NCBI RefSeq assembly: GCF_018977255.1
Contig: NW_024704747.1
Span: 21,762,001 to 21,826,000 of the forward strand
Reading direction: 5' to 3'
Length of the DNA: 64,000 nucleotides
Origin: Callorhinchus milii
Lineage: Eukaryota
Below the pieces are notes generated by a model. It was not told where the DNA came from. It saw only the letters and a program-made list of their open reading frames with translations, and made no database searches. The number at the start of each line of letters is the position of its first letter. Within the stretch, counting starts at the first letter, position 1. Shown piece after piece: positions 1,681-24,649 of this stretch. The position numbers were made by a program, and so were the translations under genes.

Positions 1681-2022
1681 TCGGACCCAGCAGGAAATCC
1701 TCCAGGTGAATTGACCATTCAACTCCTGTCTGTTGGTGGGACCTTGTTGTTGCAAATAGCTGTGGCTTTTGCCTGCAAGGAGTTGCTGCACTTGACAGTA
1801 CTTACTTATGAAGAGCTATCAGATGTTTCAGTGTTCTCCGTGCTATAAGCAAATGCAAGGATTATTATTAGTCAGTTTAGTCATGAGACTATGGAATGGT
1901 GTGACTGAAAGGATTAATAGCACTGTTCTGCCATCTTCCCAGAGAAAAGGATTCACTCACTCTCAGTCATTTCGCCCTACTTTGCTCTAACAACAACAAC
2001 AACAACAAGATTCCATTTATAG

Positions 2023-2058
2023 AGCGCCTTTCACGTCAGGAGGACGTCCCAAGGCGCT
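2023..2058 (-). other. L2 3' stem-loop (putative RT recognition signal)
   Basis: Sense AGCGCCTT-GGG-ACGTC-CTCCT-GACGT-GA-AAGGCGCT just upstream of the microsatellite tail. L2 LINEs are known to need a 3' stem-loop for retrotransposition. Confidence 0.85.
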
Positions 2059-2144
2059 GCACAGTTGGGTCATGACCCGAGCAGGGGGGAAATGGTCAGG
2101 GTGAGGGGAGGGAAGGGAGGGAGAGAGAGAGGAGGGGGAAATGG

Positions 2145-5100
2145 TCAGGGTGAGGGGAGGGAAGGGAGGGAGCGAGGAGGAGGAAGAGAGTCGAGAGGGG
2201 AGCTGAAGGCACGGTCAAAGAGAAAGGTTTTGAGACCGGCCTTGAAGGAGGAAAGGGAGGAAGCAAGGCGAAGGCACTGGGGGATGGAGTTCCAGAGCCT
2301 CGGGGCTGAGAGGCTGAAGGCCCGACCACCGATAGTAGGGCGGTTGGGGCGGGGGACGTGGAGCAGACCGGAGCCAGAGGAACGGAGGGTACGGGCAGGT
2401 AGGTAGGGGGATAGTAGGTTGGAGAGGTAGGAGGGAGCAAGGCCGTGAATGGCCTTGTAGGTGAGGATGAGGATCTTGAAATCAATCCTCTGGGGGATGG
2501 GGAGCCAGTGGAGGCGAGCGAGGGTGGGAGTGATGTGGTCCCGAAGCCTGGTGCGGGACAGTACACGAGCTGCAGAGTTCTGAATGACCTGCAGCTTGTG
2601 GAGGGAGGTGGCGGGAAGGCCGGCGAGGAGAGAGTTCCCATAGTCCAGCCTTGAGGTGACAAAGGCGTGAACCAGGGTTTCAGCAGCGTGAGGGGTGAGG
2701 TAGTGCCGTAGTCTGGCGATATTCCGGAGGTGATGGAAGGCGGTGCCAGTTGTGGTGCGGATGTGAGGGAGAAAGGACAGCTCAGGGTCGAACAAAACGC
2801 CGAGGTTCCTGACTGGCTTTGAGAGGTGGAGAGTGCAGCCTTGGATGCTGATGGTGTCAGCGCCTGAGGTGCGGAGGCGCTGACGTGAGCCAATCAGGAG
2901 GGCCTCGGTTTTTTGCACGTTGAGCTGAAGAAAGTTGTCTCTCGTCCAGGACTCGATGTCGGACAGGCAGGCTGTCAGGACATCGGTGGTCGTGGAGTTG
3001 AGAGTAGAGGAGGAAAGGTAGAGTTGGGTGTCATCCGCATACATGTGGAAGTTAACCCCATGTTTGCGGATGATGTCACCAAGGGGGAGCATATAGAGGG
3101 TGAAGAGGAGGGGACCGAGGACAGAGCCCTGAGGGACACCACATGAGACAGTACGGGGGGTGGAGGAGAAGCCATTCGTTGAGACGAAGTGAAGACGGTG
3201 AGAAAGGTACGACCTAAACCATTCAAGGACAGTGCCTTGAAGGTTGAGGTGGGAGGACAAGCGGTGGAGTAGGATAGTGTGGTCGACCGTATCGAATGCT
3301 GCCGATAGGTCGAGGAGGACGAGGAGACAGAGGGAGCCCTGGTCACAGATGGTCAGGATATCATTGGTGACCTTGACCAGGGCAGTTTCTGTGCTATGAG
3401 CAGCACGGAAACCTGACTGAAGGGGTTCAAAAAGAGAATGGGTGGAGAGGAAAGAGCGCAGTTGGGAGGCGACAACTCTTTCCAAGACCTTGGAGAGAAA
3501 GGGGAGGTTGGAGATGGGCCGGTAGCTTGATAGCTGCGACGCATCAAGGGAGGGTTTTTTCAGGGTGGGCGTGATGATGGCAGTTTTTAATGGAATGGGG
3601 ACAGAGCCAGAGGAGAGGGACAGGTTTATGATGTCAGTGATGTGTGGGGCAAGAAAATGGAGCTGGGAGATAAGGAGTGGAGTGGGGATGGGGTCAAGGG
3701 AGCAGGTGGTTGGTTTTAGGGATAGGATGAGTTCAGTGACAGAGGGTGGGGAAACGGGTACGAAGGTGTGTAGGGGAGGATGGGTAGGAGTCGGAGTGTG
3801 GGAGGGAAGGGGTGGGTGGTGGGTGGAAGTTGGAGGGGAAGTGACCGCGGAGCGGATTCCCTTGATCTTGGATTCAAGGAAATCCAGCATCTCCTCGCAG
3901 TGAAGGTTGGAGGAGATGACCTGCGCGGGGTGGCGGGGGGGACGGAGGAGTCGGGATGTGGTGGAAAACAGTAGCCTGGGGTTGTTCTTCGCCTCCAGGA
4001 TTATCCTGGAGTAGAAGGACGACTTGGCCGAGGCTAGAGTGGAGCGGTAAATTTTGAGGAGGTCCAGCCAGATTTGTCGGTGGACCGTTAAGCCGGATTT
4101 GACAAAGGTGCGCTCAGCAGCCCGCACCTGGCATTTCAGTGAGCGGAGGTGGGTGGTGTACCAGGGGGAGGAGCGGGAGTAGGAGACAGTGCGGGAAGTG
4201 ATGGGGGCAAGAGTATCGAGTGTGGAGGAGAGGATATTGTGGAGGAGGGAGAGAGGAGAAGAGGGGTCGGTGAGGGTTGAAGGCCAGAGGGAGAGGAGTT
4301 CAGAGGACTCCAAGGCATCGGTTAGGGATTGTGGGGGTAACTTCTTCCAAGGGCGGTAGAAGATGGTGGTGGGTCTGGTGGAGGTGGGGAGGGGGGTGGA
4401 GGTGGTGAAGGAGATGAAGTAGTGGTCGGAGATGGCCTTGTCGGTAATAGTGACATCCGAGACACTGAGGCCCCGGGTGATCACCAAATCGAGTGGGTGG
4501 CCGTGACTGTGAGTGGGGGAGTTTATGTGTAGGGAAAGGTTGAGTGAGGAGAGCAGGGAAGAGAAGTCTGTGGAGATGGAGCAGGAGGGGGTGAAGTGTA
4601 GGTTAAAGTCGCCCAGGATGATGAGGCGATCGGAGCAGAGGCAAAGAGATGTGAGGAGTGTTGAAATGTCAGAGATGAAGGTGGGAGAGGTTTTAGGGGG
4701 CCGGTAGAGGAGGAGGATTTTAAGGGAGAGGAATGAGGGGTGGGAGAGGGTGAGGTGCTCGAAGGAGGGGAAAGAGCCAGTGGAGTAGGGGGAGAGGGCA
4801 AGTGGTGTCCTTGAGATAAGGGCAACACCACCGCCACGGCGGTTGGGGCGGGGGATGTGGTGGGAGGTGTAGCCGGGTGGCGTGGCCTCCGTGAGGGGGA
4901 AGGTGTCGCCTGGGGTGAGCCACGTTTCTGTCAAGGCCATGATATCAACGTTCTCATCAAGGATGAGATCGTTGATGACCAGGGCCTTGTTGCAGAGGGA
5001 GCGGACATTTTGCAGTCCGATGTGGAGGGAGCGGTTGACAGAAGGGTGTGTGGGAGGGGAGGGGGGTCCAGGTTGTGAGGCAGGGGTGGGGGAGATGGGG

Positions 5101-5417
5101 ATGAGGGAGGAGAGGTTGACTCCCCGGGTCTGTGTCCGGGGTGGCTGGCGAGAGTGGTGGGGAATGGGGCAGTCGGTGTGGCTGCTGCTGGACAGCCAAC
5201 GCCGAGTGCCACGGTGAGCCCGGCGGAGGATTCCCAGACTGGAACAGAGGGAGGTTGTGGGAGGGTCAAGTGGGGATAGAAGACGAGAGGGACGGAGAGA
5301 GAGGAGGACAGAGCGAGAGAGATGCAGAGGGGGGAGGGTTTGGGGGGAGAGAGGAGGGGGGCGGGAGGGAGGGGGTGAGGGAGGGGGTGAGGGGGCTCGG
5401 GTCAAAGCGGCAGCCAT
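2145..5417 (-). CDS. L2 LINE endonuclease-reverse transcriptase (APE + RT), 1090 aa from ATG at 5417 (the ORF track starts at GTG 5426)
   Basis: APE motifs [39 protein letters not shown] motifs [48 protein letters not shown]2-type C-terminus with [10 protein letters not shown] and [16 protein letters not shown] in strong Kozak context (actATGG). Confidence 0.96.
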
Positions 5418-5611
5418 AGTGCGCACGCGGGGACCGGGAGCGAGCGGTCAGGTGGATGGCATTATCCCGCAGATTGGGGCATCGAACCCAACAGGACCAT
5501 AGTGGGCTCTGATGTGAGCCCTGGGGGGGGGGGGCGCGGAGGGTTTTTTTTTTTGTTTTGTTTTTTTTTTTTTTTTTTTTTTGTGCGCGCGCACTCACCT
5601 GAAAACTAATC

Positions 5612-7066
5612 TATGACGTCGCAGTTCCCCCGCTCCGCCCCCACCCCTCCACTGCCTAGCTGCACTCGCTCCGGCGTCGAGTTTAAGTACCTGGGTCAGT
5701 AGGCCCAGGCTCCTCCCCGCGCTGTCCTGCTGCCGCTCCCCGACTGGCTGCACTCGCTCCGGCGTCGAGTTTAAGTACCTGGGTCAGTAGGCCCAGGCTC
5801 CTCCCCGCGCTGTCCTGCTGCCGCTCCCCGACTGGCTGCACTCGCTCCGGCGTCGAGTTTAAGTACCTGGGTCAGTAGGCCCAGGCTCCTCCCCGCGCTG
5901 TCCTGCTGCCGCTCCCCGACTGGCTGCACTCGCTCCGGCGTCGAGTTTAAGTACCTGGGTCAGTAGGCCCAGGCTCCTCCCCGCGCTGTCCTGCCGCCGC
6001 TCCCCGACTGGCTGCACTCGCTCCGGCGTCGAGTTTAAGTACCTGGGTCAGTAGGCCCAGGCTCCTCCCCGCGCTGTCCTGCTGCCGCTCCCCGACTGGC
6101 TGCACTCGCTCCGGCGTCGAGTTTAAGTACCTGGGTCAGTAGGCCCAGGCTCCTCCCCGCGCTGTCCTGCCGCCGCTCCCCGACTGGCTGCACTCGCTCC
6201 GGCGTCGAGTTTAAGTACCTGGGTCAGTAGGCCCAGGCTCCTCCCCGCGCTGTCCTGCTGCCGCTCCCCGACTGGCTGCACTCGCTCCGGCGTCGAGTTT
6301 AAGTACCTGGGTCAGTAGGCCCAGGCTCCTCCCCGCGCTGTCCTGCCGCCGCTCCCCGACTGGCTGCACTCGCTCCGGCGTCGAGTTTAAGTACCTGGGT
6401 CAGTAGGCCCAGGCTCCTCCCCGCGCTGTCCTGCTGCCGCTCCCCGACTGGCTGCACTCGCTCCGGCGTCGAGTTTAAGTACCTGGGTCAGTAGGCCCAG
6501 GCTCCTCCCCGCGCTGTCCTGCCGCCGCTCCCCGACTGGCTGCACTCGCTCCGGCGTCGAGTTTAAGTACCTGGGTCAGTAGGCCCAGGCTCCTCCCCGC
6601 GCTGTCCTGCCGCCGCTCCCCGACTGGCTGCACTCGCTCCGGCGTCGAGTTTAAGTACCTGGGTCAGTAGGCCCAGGCTCCTCCCCGCGCTGTCCTGCCG
6701 CCGCTCCCCGACTGGCTGCACTCGCTCCGGCGTCGAGTTTAAGTACCTGGGTCAGTAGGCCCAGGCTCCTCCCCGCGCTGTCCTGCTGCCGCTCCCCGAC
6801 TGGCTGCACTCGCTCCGGCGTCGAGTTTAAGTACCTGGGTCAGTAGGCCCAGGCTCCTCCCCGCGCTGTCCTGCTGCCGCTCCCCGACTGGCTGCACTCG
6901 CTCCGGCGTCGAGTTTAAGTACCTGGGTCAGTAGGCCCAGGCTCCTCCCCGCGCTGTCCTGCTGCCGCTCCCCGACTGGCTGCACTCGCTCCGGCGTCGA
7001 GTTTAAGTACCTGGGTCAGTAGGCCCAGGCTCCTCCCCGCGCTGTCCTGCTGCCGCTCCCCGACTG
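5612..7066 (-). promoter_or_regulatory. Putative Pol II promoter region of the L2 (monomer TATA-like + Inr-like motifs; proximal GC box and CRE-like site)
   Basis: Each sense monomer has GGGGAGGAGCC, TACTTAAA, and GCCAGT about 30 nt downstream. The unique proximal part has GGGGCGGAG (5633-5641) and GACGTCA (5614-5620). Function is inferred. Confidence 0.5.
5661..7066 (-). repeat. Tandem array of 16 x 88-bp CpG-rich monomers forming the LINE 5' end
   Basis: The unit TGCACTCGCT...CGACTGGC starts at 5661, 5749 ... 6981 (period 88). The only variation seen is one T/C site (ctgc[T/C]gccgc). Each unit has 8-9 CpG. Confidence 0.97.
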
Positions 7067-8984
7067 CTGCCGCTCTAATCGACCTAATTAGAAAAAGGAA
7101 CAGTTGACAAGGGAATTTATTTCATCTTGCAAAGGACACCTCCCATTGACCATGGGAGAAGCCCGTGGAACAGTCTGTCCCTATTAAAGGAGGGCAGGAT
7201 TCAAGCAGAACATGCTGAAGACAGTGATAAAATGGGGTGGAGGGAATTACAAAAATAAACTTATTTTGTTATCCTTTTCTATTTAAAAAAGTGGATACTG
7301 AGTCACAAACTTTCTTTATGAGAGTTCAGTTAAAAATACATATCTCAACCCAAGCTACACACTATCTTCCAAATTCCTTCAACAAGAGCAATATTGTTCT
7401 TAATAATAATAAGCATAATAATCCTTGCATTTGACATCTTATCATGTCTTCGACATGTCTCAATGAGCTTCACAAGATTCACCTAAAGTGTAGTTACTAT
7501 GTAGTTGTAGGCAAACAAGAGGCAGATGTGAGGGTTTTCAGAATTTGTATTTATTTGCATTAAACATACTGTATAATTCTGAAATGCTGCGCAAAGATAA
7601 ACCTGCAGAAGACCTGTTCATGTCAGAGACAAGATGGAGGTTTGCGTTTCTATTGGGAAGCTCAATTCAAGAACACAAAGAGACTAAGTGAGAAACTTCC
7701 AACTGCTAAATCTTCATGGCCTCAAAGATGAGACATCAAGGGAGGCTTCTGCTCTGCAATCTCCTTGTAACATGATGAAAACAGCCATTTTGTCTGACAA
7801 CCCATCTGGGCCTGTGGGGCTTGAATCAGTGAACTCTCGGAAGCTACTGTGGGTTGGCATTCATTTATCACTCTTTCTAAAGCAGCACAAGTGTTGACAG
7901 ATACAGATTGAATGCCAGCACTAAAAGGGATGTGCGATGTGATGCAAACGGTGACCGTTCAGCTGGTGTGGGGCCTTAGTGATTTAGACACACATTATGG
8001 TTTCCCAGATGTGTCATGTGGAGTGCATATGAGGGCCACCGTTTTGCTCGATCATTAATTTGTTACTCAAGTACCCTGCCACTGCCACTGTTGTTTGGCC
8101 ACGGTTCGCCTGGTTCAAATACAGCTCAAGTATCTGAGAGCACCGGGTGAACTGGAAAATAATTGTTACATTTTAAATTATGACAGCATTTTGCGCCCAT
8201 TTTATGGTTGCAATCATTTTAATTTGTAGGTGAGTCACCCCAAAAGACTCGTGAATTGTGGAAATACCCAATGGAAGCAATGAGGCCACTGATACATAAA
8301 AAAGCTATTGAGCGTTACACATAGTGTAATTATCAGTCACAAAGCTTCTGCTTGTAGTGTCGGGATTACCCTCTACCAATCTGTTTGTACATACCTTACC
8401 ATAGAGTTTATGTTGGTTAAGGACATGGGCTCTAGCTTTTATCTTCCACCTGTGCTCTCATTCCTTTTGTGGATCACTGAAATATAATTCAAATGAAACA
8501 TGTGATATATGCTTCTGGTTTCCATTCATCCCATAACAGAGTTCAACAAAAAGGATATCTACACATTTTTAAACATTCTTTCAAAAGCGATATGAGTGAC
8601 CAAAAACTTCAGACATTTCTGGATAAAAGGAAAAAAAGGTAATCTTTTAATACACCAGAGCAATTAGTTATTGAATTGAATTGAATACAAAGCTCTATAA
8701 GCTTCTTACCTAGCAAATGATAGGTGCTATTTATTTTCAGTAGAGAATTCTGCAAAGGTAAATTTGTTTTGCCTTTTATTGTAAGGTTTTGCAATTATGG
8801 TTGGATTTGGCCATTGTCCTCTATCTTTCCATTGTTTCACACTTGTTTCCAATAGACCAACCATTAAGTTTCAATCATTTTTAACTTTGAAATGCCCTGT
8901 CATCTGTTTTGGTTGCAGGTTTCCATTTGATATTGGACCTTATTAAAACTTCTCAAAGTGCTTAAAAGTAATTACTGTTCAAGT

Positions 8985-22949: not shown

Positions 22950-23854
22950 AACAACAACAACAACAACAAAATTACACTTATATAGCGCCTTTCACGTCGG
23001 GAGGACTTCCCAAGGCGCGGGACAGACAGAGTTATGGACCTGAGCTGAGGGTCGGGGTGGGGGAGGGGGAGGGCAGGGGGGGAGCAGGGAGATCGAAAGC
23101 ACGGTTGAAGAGGAGGGTCTTGAGGTGGGTCTTGAAGGTGCCGAGGGAGGGGGCAAGACGGAGGGACTGCAGGATGGACTTCCAGAGGGTGGGTGCAAAG
23201 TGGTGGAAGGCCCGCCTCCCAATAGTGGAGTGAGCAAGGTGGGGGACATGAAGCAGGCCAAAGCCTGGTGAGCGGAGGGAGCGAACAGGATGGTAGGGGA
23301 TTAGGAGGTCGGAGTGGAAGGGGGGGAGCAAGACCATGGAGGGCTTTGAAGGTGAGGACCAGAATTTTGAACAGTATCCTCTGTGTGATGGGAAGCCAGT
23401 GGAGTTGGCCAAAGATGGGGCTGATAGGGTCATGGAGCCTAATGCGGGATAGGACACGAGCTGCAGAGTTCTGGATGATCTGCAGCCTGTGGAGGGAGGA
23501 GTTGGGGAGGCCGACAAGCAGTGAGTTTGCATAGTTGAGCCTTGATGTAGTGAAGGAGTGTATGATGGCGGCCTGCAGTGTGAGACAGTGGCGGAGCCGG
23601 GCGACGTTGTGGAAGTGGGGGAAGGCAGAGCGGGCCATGGCCCAAATGTGGGGTAGAAAGGATAGTTGAGGGTCAAACAAGACCCCAAGGTTCCGGACTG
23701 GCTTAGCAAGGTTGACTGTGCAACCATGGATGGTGATACTGTCAGTACCTGAGGTGCGGAGGCGCTGACGGGAGCCAATCAGGAGAGCCTCGGTCTTGTT
23801 GACGTTCAACTGAAGAAAATTAGCTCTCATCCAGGACTTGATGTCTGACAGGCA
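22950..23854 (-). pseudogene. 5'-truncated L2 copy (about 0.9 kb, RT C-terminus, frameshifted)
   Basis: [36 protein letters not shown]...LHWLP...; the frame switches near LAPP. Stem-loop and (TTG)n tail present. Diverged from the intact copy. Confidence 0.92.
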
Positions 23855-24649
23855 TAATTGAATTGAACAAGGCAAAAAATAGAGAAAAAAGAAAGTGTTT
23901 TTAAAACTGCAATATTCCCATTCCAATACTCATCATGTCAATTATCTACAATTTGCAAAAGAGCTGACATTGAGCTTGCAACAGTACAACATGAGTTTCC
24001 AAAGAACACACAAGAGATTAAAATAAGATAAACCGGAAGTGAAGTGCTTGCTTTTTATTTTGTGACAGCCTTAGTCAGTGAGATATAAAAGGGGACCATC
24101 AGGTCAGTCCAGAAGAGATGTGTAGGTGTACATGGTGTAAGAGGTGGAGTGGGGGAATTCTCTGGGGAGGAGACTTAATGGAGCTCTGAGCTTTATCTTT
24201 TCTATTTCCAGTCTATGTGTTTATGAATCCAATATAGCCCAAAATGTCACATAGTCTTAAGCTGCGAGACCAATTTTTGTTTTAAGACTGAAGGTAGTGC
24301 AAAATTGTAAAAAAAAATTCTTCTTCTTCAGAACTGAGGAAAACCTACATTAAAACTGACCCGATTTTAAGGACCCCACGACTACATCTGCATACTTCTA
24401 AAGCCTCGTGGTTGTCAAGTGGCTGATCAGCTACTTCAGAAGGCAAAAATGCTCTGAATGCAAATGCATCATCCTGCCGTGGTCCATATTTTTGCTAACC
24501 AGAGCGAAATTCACATTTTCTAAATGCAGCATTTTCGAAACTTTGCAATTTTCTTCACGTTTCCTTGAAACAAATTGTGAAATAATATTTTCTCTCATGT
24601 TCTCCGAGGACGTGTTGGGAACATCTTTGAAAAGCTTGGTTGTGGGTAT

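What the first reader, a model, noticed from the sequence alone, without database searches (positions are those of the whole stretch)
5661..7078. L2 LINE carrying a 16-monomer tandem TATA/Inr promoter array, with its 5' end falling at a monomer initiator
Seen: each 88-bp sense monomer reads ...GGGGAGGAGCCTGGGCCTACTGACCCAGG-TACTTAAA-CTCGACGCCGGAGCGAGTGCAG-CCAGT. This puts a TATA-like box about 30 nt upstream of a BBCABW initiator (GCCAGT). Monomer homology at the 5' boundary stops at this CAGT (about 7066). Known: tandem 5' monomer promoters exist in mouse L1, and non-LTR elements lose sequence upstream of their TSS at each transposition. Inference: this L2 uses an upstream-type Pol II core promoter and keeps it by stacking copies. 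Each round would sacrifice at least one monomer, and the array would re-expand by slippage or unequal recombination. I do not know of this being described for an L2 in this lineage.
Basis: partly seen in the sequence, partly recalled or inferred. Interest (0 to 1): 0.8.

Follow-up and report, generated by a model that had tools for sequence, protein, structure and literature searches.

The report
LINE with stacked TATA promoter units
A young jumping gene in a cartilaginous fish carries 1 to 27 tandem 88-base units at its front end, and most copies start at the same few bases of a unit, which likely means each unit's TATA box starts transcription in the next unit, so the element would keep a type of promoter that such elements normally lose.

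Summary
In detail: 16 near-identical 88-bp monomers head an intact single-ORF L2 bounded by a 7-bp target-site duplication. The array is family-wide. 82 of 97 independent copies begin within a 9-base window around the monomer's CAGT. 17 of 22 copies starting at the A carry an extra G, as expected from a copied cap. The TATA reading is supported: an older subfamily (about 92% identical) has TATTTAAG, and a sister family (66-71% identical) has canonical TATAAA at -30/-31 in 23 of 23 units. The box-to-initiator distance stays fixed while the spacer sequence has turned over. Against a pure upstream promoter, copies with no full monomer are rare, even where an intact initiator follows the last TATA (2 versus about 18). 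Best model: a promoter that straddles two monomers. Daughters lose units, and arrays change length in DNA and probably at integration. The family and its array are already in print (CalMil_L2-1; PMC13343379), and monomer promoters are known in mouse L1. I found no description of the TATA-type anatomy. There are no start-site or reporter data. Verdict: new variant of a known kind.

The parts
7072..7078 (-). 5' copy of the 7-bp target-site duplication (TTAGAGC)
7067..7071 (-). Extra 5' bases; with the target end they repeat monomer positions 8-16 (re-priming footprint at the 5' junction)
5659..7066 (-). Array of 16 x 88-bp monomers; initiator C at 7066 and A(+1) at 7065, repeating every 88 bp
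7028..7038 (-). GC-box-like GGGGAGGAGCC of monomer 1 (repeated in each unit); GGGGCGGAGCC at the homologous place in the sister family
7002..7009 (-). TATA-like TACTTAAA of monomer 1 (repeated every 88 bp down to 5689-5682); first T at -32 from the next unit's A
5418..5658 (-). Unique 5' UTR: length-variable G-rich junction without the CAGT initiator, GC box, CRE-like GACGTCA, A-run and C-run
2145..5417 (-). Single intact ORF from the first ATG (APE endonuclease + reverse transcriptase); open frame 5447-2145, 1100 aa stop to stop; no ORF1
2085..2183 (-). 49-bp tandem duplication over the ORF end and 3' UTR
2009..2068 (-). 3' stem-loop of L2 type (-25.5 kcal/mol for 1995-2075, z -2.6)
1991..2008 (-). 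(TTG)n tail
1984..1990 (-). 3' copy of the target-site duplication

Best explanation
This is an intact, very young single-ORF L2 retrotransposon whose family carries 1-27 tandem 88-bp units and begins at the unit's initiator, and the units likely form an RNA polymerase II promoter that straddles two units: the GC box and TATA box of one unit would position initiation at the C/A of the next, which probably also needs sequence downstream of the initiator. On this model each new copy loses at least the unit that supplied the TATA box, and one-unit copies are the weak or dead end of the ladder (inferred). Arrays are rebuilt by length changes in DNA (shown for one insertion present with 2 and 14 units, with an assembly caveat) and probably by re-priming at the 5' end during integration (shown only for 5-13-base duplications; whole-unit addition is inferred). 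Arrays appear to shrink towards one unit with age.
For: (1) 82 of 97 independent young copies begin at unit positions -3..+5; uniform expectation 9/88, p about 6e-67 on the 95 that end inside the array. (2) 17 of 22 copies starting at the A have G before it against 26% expected, p 9e-7. This is the expected trace of a copied cap (established for L1; recalled). (3) The TATA-like box is unique in the unit and lies at -32, inside the -32..-29 window of PMC1779604. (4) Older subfamily, 91-93% identical: TATTTAAG in 24 of 42 units and a 23-nt spacer in 40 of 42, while spacer and initiator letters changed. (5) Sister family, 66-71% identical: TATAAA-type box at -30 in 20 of 23 units and -31 in 3. 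Its spacer is unrelated in sequence but the same length, while the GC-box-to-TATA distance differs by 2 nt between copies. This spacing matters only in tandem context. (6) Copies with no full unit are rare: 1 of 97 at the junction in the young family, 2 versus about 18 in the sister family; +5..+46 is the most conserved part of the unit. (7) Copies with 3 or more units have fewer private mutations than one-unit copies (17 of 19 versus 23 of 51 with none; p 0.0014). (8) The same insertion occurs with 2 and 14 units, and another with 1 and 2. (9) Short in-register 5' duplications occur in 7 of 82 copies versus 45 of 1798 control flanks.
Against: One-unit copies are the commonest class even among copies with no private mutation (23 of 56). 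None of the 28 sister-family copies with monomer sequence has two TATA units, so the model needs their sources to have collapsed or been lost. 36 of 97 copies keep the C or CC before the A and so retain a pyrimidine-purine initiator of their own. Copies starting at the C show no clear G excess (10 of 26, three of them duplications). The young family's own box has 2 mismatches to TATAWAWR. In two duplicated-insertion pairs one member looks low-quality (many gaps), so these may be haplotypes or assembly artefacts. No start-site or reporter data exist here.
Confidence: 0.55

Rival explanations
1. Each monomer is an autonomous internal promoter (initiator plus downstream elements in +5..+46), as in mouse L1 or Drosophila I/jockey. 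One-unit copies propagate themselves, and the TATA box only boosts or sharpens starts when units are in tandem.
For: One-unit copies dominate in all three groups. +5..+46 is the most conserved part. Many copies keep the C before the A. Zero-unit copies are rare. Internal promoters are the norm for non-LTR elements (PMC2881922; PMC1636488).
Against: It does not explain why the TATA-to-next-initiator distance stayed fixed across about 30% sequence divergence while the spacer letters and upstream distances changed. By eye I saw no YY1 core (GCCATCTT) and no DPE-like match at +28..+36 in the unit. L217 and L301 start at partial, TATA-less units, so an element's own +34..+88 is not needed for a start.
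Confidence: 0.3
2. Strict upstream promoter: GC box + TATA + initiator alone suffice, and nothing downstream is needed.
For: Conserved TATA geometry. A few copies do start at terminal partial units: L217, L190, L272, L301.
Against: In the sister family an intact initiator follows the last TATA in nearly every copy, yet starts there number 2 against about 18 at the full unit. It survives only if those shorter RNAs are made but transpose poorly.
Confidence: 0.1
3. The phased ends are not transcription starts. They reflect a reverse-transcription stop, RNA cleavage or preferred joining site in a minisatellite carried by the element.
For: Microhomology and extra bases are common at these junctions (general for L2, PMC4245944).
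Against: Extra G before the A (17 of 22), initiator consensus at the exact position in three sequence versions, and a TATA box at the right distance.
Confidence: 0.05

Closest known systems
CalMil_L2-1 and CalMil_L2-2 consensus sequences, and the 5' 'repeating subunit' of ORF1(-) CR1-group elements (PMC13343379, Fig. 4 legend and Supplementary Tables 2-3)
   Same: The CalMil_L2-1 consensus begins with about three copies of this monomer followed by the same unique 5' UTR (first 400 letters seen). Single ORF; 141 of 326 with intact ORF2.
   Different: The paper gives 1-5 subunits of 100-500 bp as a structural remark. The words promoter, monomer and tandem do not occur in its main text. Here units are 88 bp and up to 27; phase, cap G and TATA spacing are not described in the passages I saw.
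Mouse L1Md monomer promoters (A, Tf, Gf) (PMC6454616, PMC10620060)
   Same: Tandem CpG-rich 5' monomers of variable number; 5' ends cluster at a Py/Pu initiator; daughters lose 0.6-1.8 monomers; re-expansion by unequal crossing-over or second-strand priming proposed but unresolved.
   Different: L1 clade with ORF1 and longer monomers (about 200 bp, recalled). Start is set by a YY1 site downstream of the start (internal promoter) and is broader. Here it is an L2 with a tight start window and a conserved upstream TATA box.
Drosophila HeT-A promoting in tandem (Danilevskaya 1997, as described in PMC1636488)
   Same: Sequence upstream of the start, supplied by a neighbouring repeat, drives transcription of a non-LTR element.
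   Different: HeT-A uses the 3' end of a whole upstream element at telomeres. Here the upstream part is an 88-bp unit inside the same dispersed element, and the 3' end has no monomer copy.
Dictyostelium TRE5-A A-module (PMC3159450)
   Same: A 200-bp 5' module with promoter activity in a non-LTR element; a canonical upstream promoter put in its place is left behind on transposition.
   Different: Described as an internally located promoter in an unrelated, tRNA-gene-targeting element. Its tandem repetition is recalled, not seen in the passages read.

Membership tests
L2 clade non-LTR retrotransposon (CalMil_L2-1) | ORF with APE endonuclease and reverse transcriptase | tested here: met
   PF03372 and PF00078
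L2 clade non-LTR retrotransposon (CalMil_L2-1) | 3' stem-loop and short tandem tail instead of poly(A) | tested here: met
L2 clade non-LTR retrotransposon (CalMil_L2-1) | Short target-site duplications (peak 3-5 bp per PMC4245944) | tested here: met
   7 bp in the window copy; about 4-8 bp where recognisable, many copies ambiguous
L2 clade non-LTR retrotransposon (CalMil_L2-1) | RT phylogeny within L2 | not tested
   No tree against reference clades was built; the assignment rests on the by-eye match of the 5' 400 bases to the published CalMil_L2-1 consensus
Mouse-L1-type monomer promoter | Tandem 5' monomers of variable number with clustered 5' ends | tested here: met
Mouse-L1-type monomer promoter | YY1 site just downstream of the start | tested here: not met
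   No GCCATCTT/CCAT core in the monomer printed (read by eye)
Mouse-L1-type monomer promoter | Additive promoter activity of monomers | not testable with these tools
   needs reporters
TATA/Inr Pol II core promoter | TATA box starting -32..-29 from a Py-Pu start | tested here: met
   -32 in this family (2 mismatches; 1 in the older subfamily), -30/-31 canonical in the sister family
TATA/Inr Pol II core promoter | Capped transcripts starting at the initiator | tested here: inconclusive
   Indirect only: extra G in 17 of 22 A-starts; no raw RNA reads
TATA/Inr Pol II core promoter | TBP binding and TATA dependence | not testable with these tools
   needs mutagenesis or ChIP
HeT-A-type sacrificial upstream promoter | Single unit cannot start at its own 5' end; daughters always lose upstream sequence | tested here: inconclusive
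   No donor-daughter pair could be resolved (tree poorly resolved); one-unit excess fits both models

The most novel reading that the evidence does not exclude
A vertebrate LINE lineage has, for the whole history of two sister families, run on an ordinary upstream TATA promoter and paid one 88-bp unit per generation. It works like an LTR folded into a tandem array (R-U3-R-U3...), and rebuilds the array by re-priming of reverse transcription one unit downstream of the RNA's 5' end. The species-specific 5' subunits seen in other ORF1-less CR1-group elements would be the same device.
Probability: 0.3. Interest if true: 0.75.

Novelty: new variant of a known kind. Interest (0 to 1): 0.55.

Why it matters
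Non-LTR retrotransposons are expected to need internal promoters, because anything upstream of the start is lost. A dispersed vertebrate L2 that keeps a conserved upstream TATA box by stacking units would be a distinct solution to that problem. With 88-bp units, near-single-base phase and over a hundred very young full-length copies, it is also a cleaner system than mouse L1 for the open question of how monomer arrays are lost and rebuilt (PMC6454616 calls that mechanism unclear).

Tried and rejected
Locus-specific minisatellite: rejected. 467 exact monomer matches genome-wide; the 13 extra monomer sites fetched were all attached to this element's 5' UTR.

Spliced element: a donor-like CAG/GTGAGT at 5598 suggested an intron. 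No genomic copy joins the donor to A, C or T (a G-starting exon would be missed), no such joint appears in contigs, and the older subfamily lacks the GT. Dropped.

Expression: no RNA holder was listed on record, and only assembled contigs could be laid. These cannot show starts, strand or level, so they are no evidence either way.

Donor-daughter inference from a tree of 98 copies: too little resolution, and copies of one insertion did not group.

LTR-like regeneration from a 3' copy of the unit: no monomer match in the body or 3' UTR on the sense strand (best score 16).

Automatic TSD calling gave many spurious or ambiguous calls, so TSD-based counts were not used.

Skate, coelacanth and sturgeon L2 consensus 5' ends (14 rows, first 400 letters): no recognisable version of this monomer by eye. 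Generality beyond this genome is untested.

Literature searches for an L2/CR1 monomer TATA promoter found none. Repbase and Dfam could not be searched.

Full report
The element. The window holds a full-length non-LTR retrotransposon on the minus strand, 7071 to 1991, between 7-bp target-site duplications. It has 16 monomers of 88 bp (7066-5659) and a 240-bp unique 5' UTR. One uninterrupted ORF carries endonuclease and reverse transcriptase; there is no ORF1. It ends in a stem-loop and a (TTG)n tail. Its 5' region matches by eye the published consensus CalMil_L2-1, which labels it an L2 of the elephant shark and already contains about three monomers.

The family. An exact 27-mer from the unique 5' UTR, which does not select for monomers, has 137 matches. 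I fetched the 100 that were listed. 98 have the normal 3' end. Of these 98, 52 have one unit, 16 have two, 22 have three or more (up to 27), and 8 have part of a unit or none. The two left out carry about 4.5 and 10 units. For phase I dropped 3 duplicates of the same insertion and re-anchored 3 copies by hand. One further copy (L137) abuts an assembly gap. Of 97 copies, 82 begin at unit positions -3..+5: 1 at -2, 9 at -1, 26 at the C, 22 at the A, 14 at the next G, 10 at +3..+5. Thirteen end elsewhere in a unit and 2 in the unique part. Of the 22 starting at the A, 17 have G before it, against 26% expected from flanks. In some the G is clearly outside the target duplication (L107, L125), in one inside it (L128). 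Copying of the cap G by LINE reverse transcriptases is recalled knowledge. The C-starts show no clear G excess (10 of 26, including three duplications).

Is the TATA box real? In the young unit TACTTAAA is the only site within two mismatches of TATAWAWR (consensus recalled). It begins 32 bases before the only BBCABW initiator; shuffle probability is 0.013. PMC1779604 (passages) puts functional boxes at -32..-29 and notes that at longer spacings minor starts fall at more favourable distances. That fits the starts at the two Cs, although non-templated additions could also give them. An older subfamily, 91-93% identical, has the same unit length and CACAC in place of CAGTC at the start. It has TATTTAAG in 24 of 42 units and a 23-base spacer in 40 of 42 (101 of 101 young; 2 units unparsed), although the spacer is the most variable part. 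The motif anchors used there bias conservation upward at the GC box and the TATA box. The sister family was found from the CalMil_L2-2 consensus; I examined 70 of 93 pattern hits, 28 of which show monomer sequence. It is 66-71% identical over the ORF region. Its homologous unit has GGGGCGGAGCC and a TATAAA-type box at -30 in 20 and -31 in 3 of 23 units, after I removed one spurious flank match. The spacer is unrelated in sequence but equal in length, and the GC-box-to-TATA distance differs by 2 bases between copies (14 against 7). A fixed distance from a TATA box to the start of the following unit has a purpose only in tandem, so it is the strongest evidence for an upstream role.

What does not fit a pure upstream promoter. 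If TATA plus initiator were enough, the last box should produce many copies without a full unit. In the young family the last junction mostly lacks the CA initiator, and only L134 starts there. In the sister family an intact initiator and about 25 bases of unit follow the last box in nearly all copies. Even so, only 2 copies (L272, L301) start there, against about 18 at or near the start of the full unit (counted by eye). In the older subfamily L217 and L190 start at partial, TATA-less units. Positions +5..+46 are the most conserved. I infer that efficient starts need both the upstream box and downstream sequence of a full unit, which makes two units the minimal strong promoter. The main rival is that single units fire on their own and the box is a booster. 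One-unit copies are the largest class even among copies with no private mutation (23 of 56), and no sister-family copy has two boxes; both facts suit that rival.

How arrays change. With the 6 copies in duplicated pairs dropped, 17 of 19 arrays of three or more units have no private mutation, against 23 of 51 one-unit copies (p 0.0014). The older subfamily and the sister family are almost all one-unit. This suggests collapse with age, like solo-LTR formation, though assembly polishing may distort private-mutation counts. One insertion is present twice with 2 and 14 units, another with 1 and 2, a third with 8 and 8. In the first two pairs one member is gap-rich and may be a haplotype or an artefact. 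Long arrays show higher-order variant patterns (L144, L145, the window copy), as unequal exchange would give. At 5' junctions, 7 of 82 copies, the window copy among them, carry a 5-13-base direct duplication of the unit's first bases, against 2.5% of control flanks. L022 has an inverted one. Re-priming therefore occurs at the 5' end. The same slip by 88 bases would add a unit, but that is inferred.

Comparison with what is known. Papers were seen as passages from term searches only: PMC6454616, PMC10620060, PMC13343379, PMC1779604, PMC4245944, PMC3159450, PMC2881922, PMC1636488. For PMC13343379 I also saw supplement rows cut at 400 letters. Mouse L1 has the same architecture and monomer loss but a downstream YY1-directed start. 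HeT-A has an upstream, sacrificed promoter, but borrowed from a whole neighbouring element. PMC13343379 notes 5' repeating subunits in ORF1-less CR1-group elements without discussing promoters. Searches found no report of a TATA-type monomer promoter in an L2. Repbase, Dfam and subscription journals were not searchable. An earlier AI note on this genome (e1-7812041) reached the same phase observation; it is not independent support.

Verdict. The structure is catalogued. The promoter anatomy, conserved across two families, appears undescribed but is untested at the bench. New variant of a known kind; interest 0.55.

Noticed in passing
L283, L296, L299, L304, L322 (about 100-240 bases upstream of the CRE-like site): Five sister-family L2 copies share the same upstream sequence, which resembles the 5' UTR of the CalMil_CR1-2 consensus, fused at about +12 of the monomer. 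This looks like a chimeric sublineage that spread from a captured CR1 promoter.
   Followed up: no
L289, L303, L308, L311, L315, L319, L324: A third L2 5' type without these monomers, carrying CACTTCC(G/T)GG (ETS-like) and GCCATTTT (YY1-like) motifs (motif names recalled). Apparent promoter replacement among L2 subfamilies in this genome.
   Followed up: no
L171, L179, L190, L258, L265: The older subfamily has 29-30-bp deletion derivatives of the monomer lacking GC box and TATA, in arrays of up to about 10. L253 and L265 share a flank and differ by such a deletion.
   Followed up: partly
window 5598 and about 5240, minus strand: Donor-like and acceptor-like splice signals in the 5' region; no spliced copy found, and the donor is not conserved in the older subfamily.
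   Followed up: yes
L082/L083 (G000:C1:137.63 and 137.75 Mb): Inverted duplication with 95-98% identical flanks holding the same insertion with 2 versus 14 monomers; segmental duplication or false duplication in the assembly.
   Followed up: partly
L087, L089: The 5' end is preceded by sequence from the element's own ORF: insertion into another copy, or a template switch.
   Followed up: no
window 23001-24000: GC-rich, skewed kilobase with the same composition as the L2 ORF; probably a truncated L2 copy.
   Followed up: no
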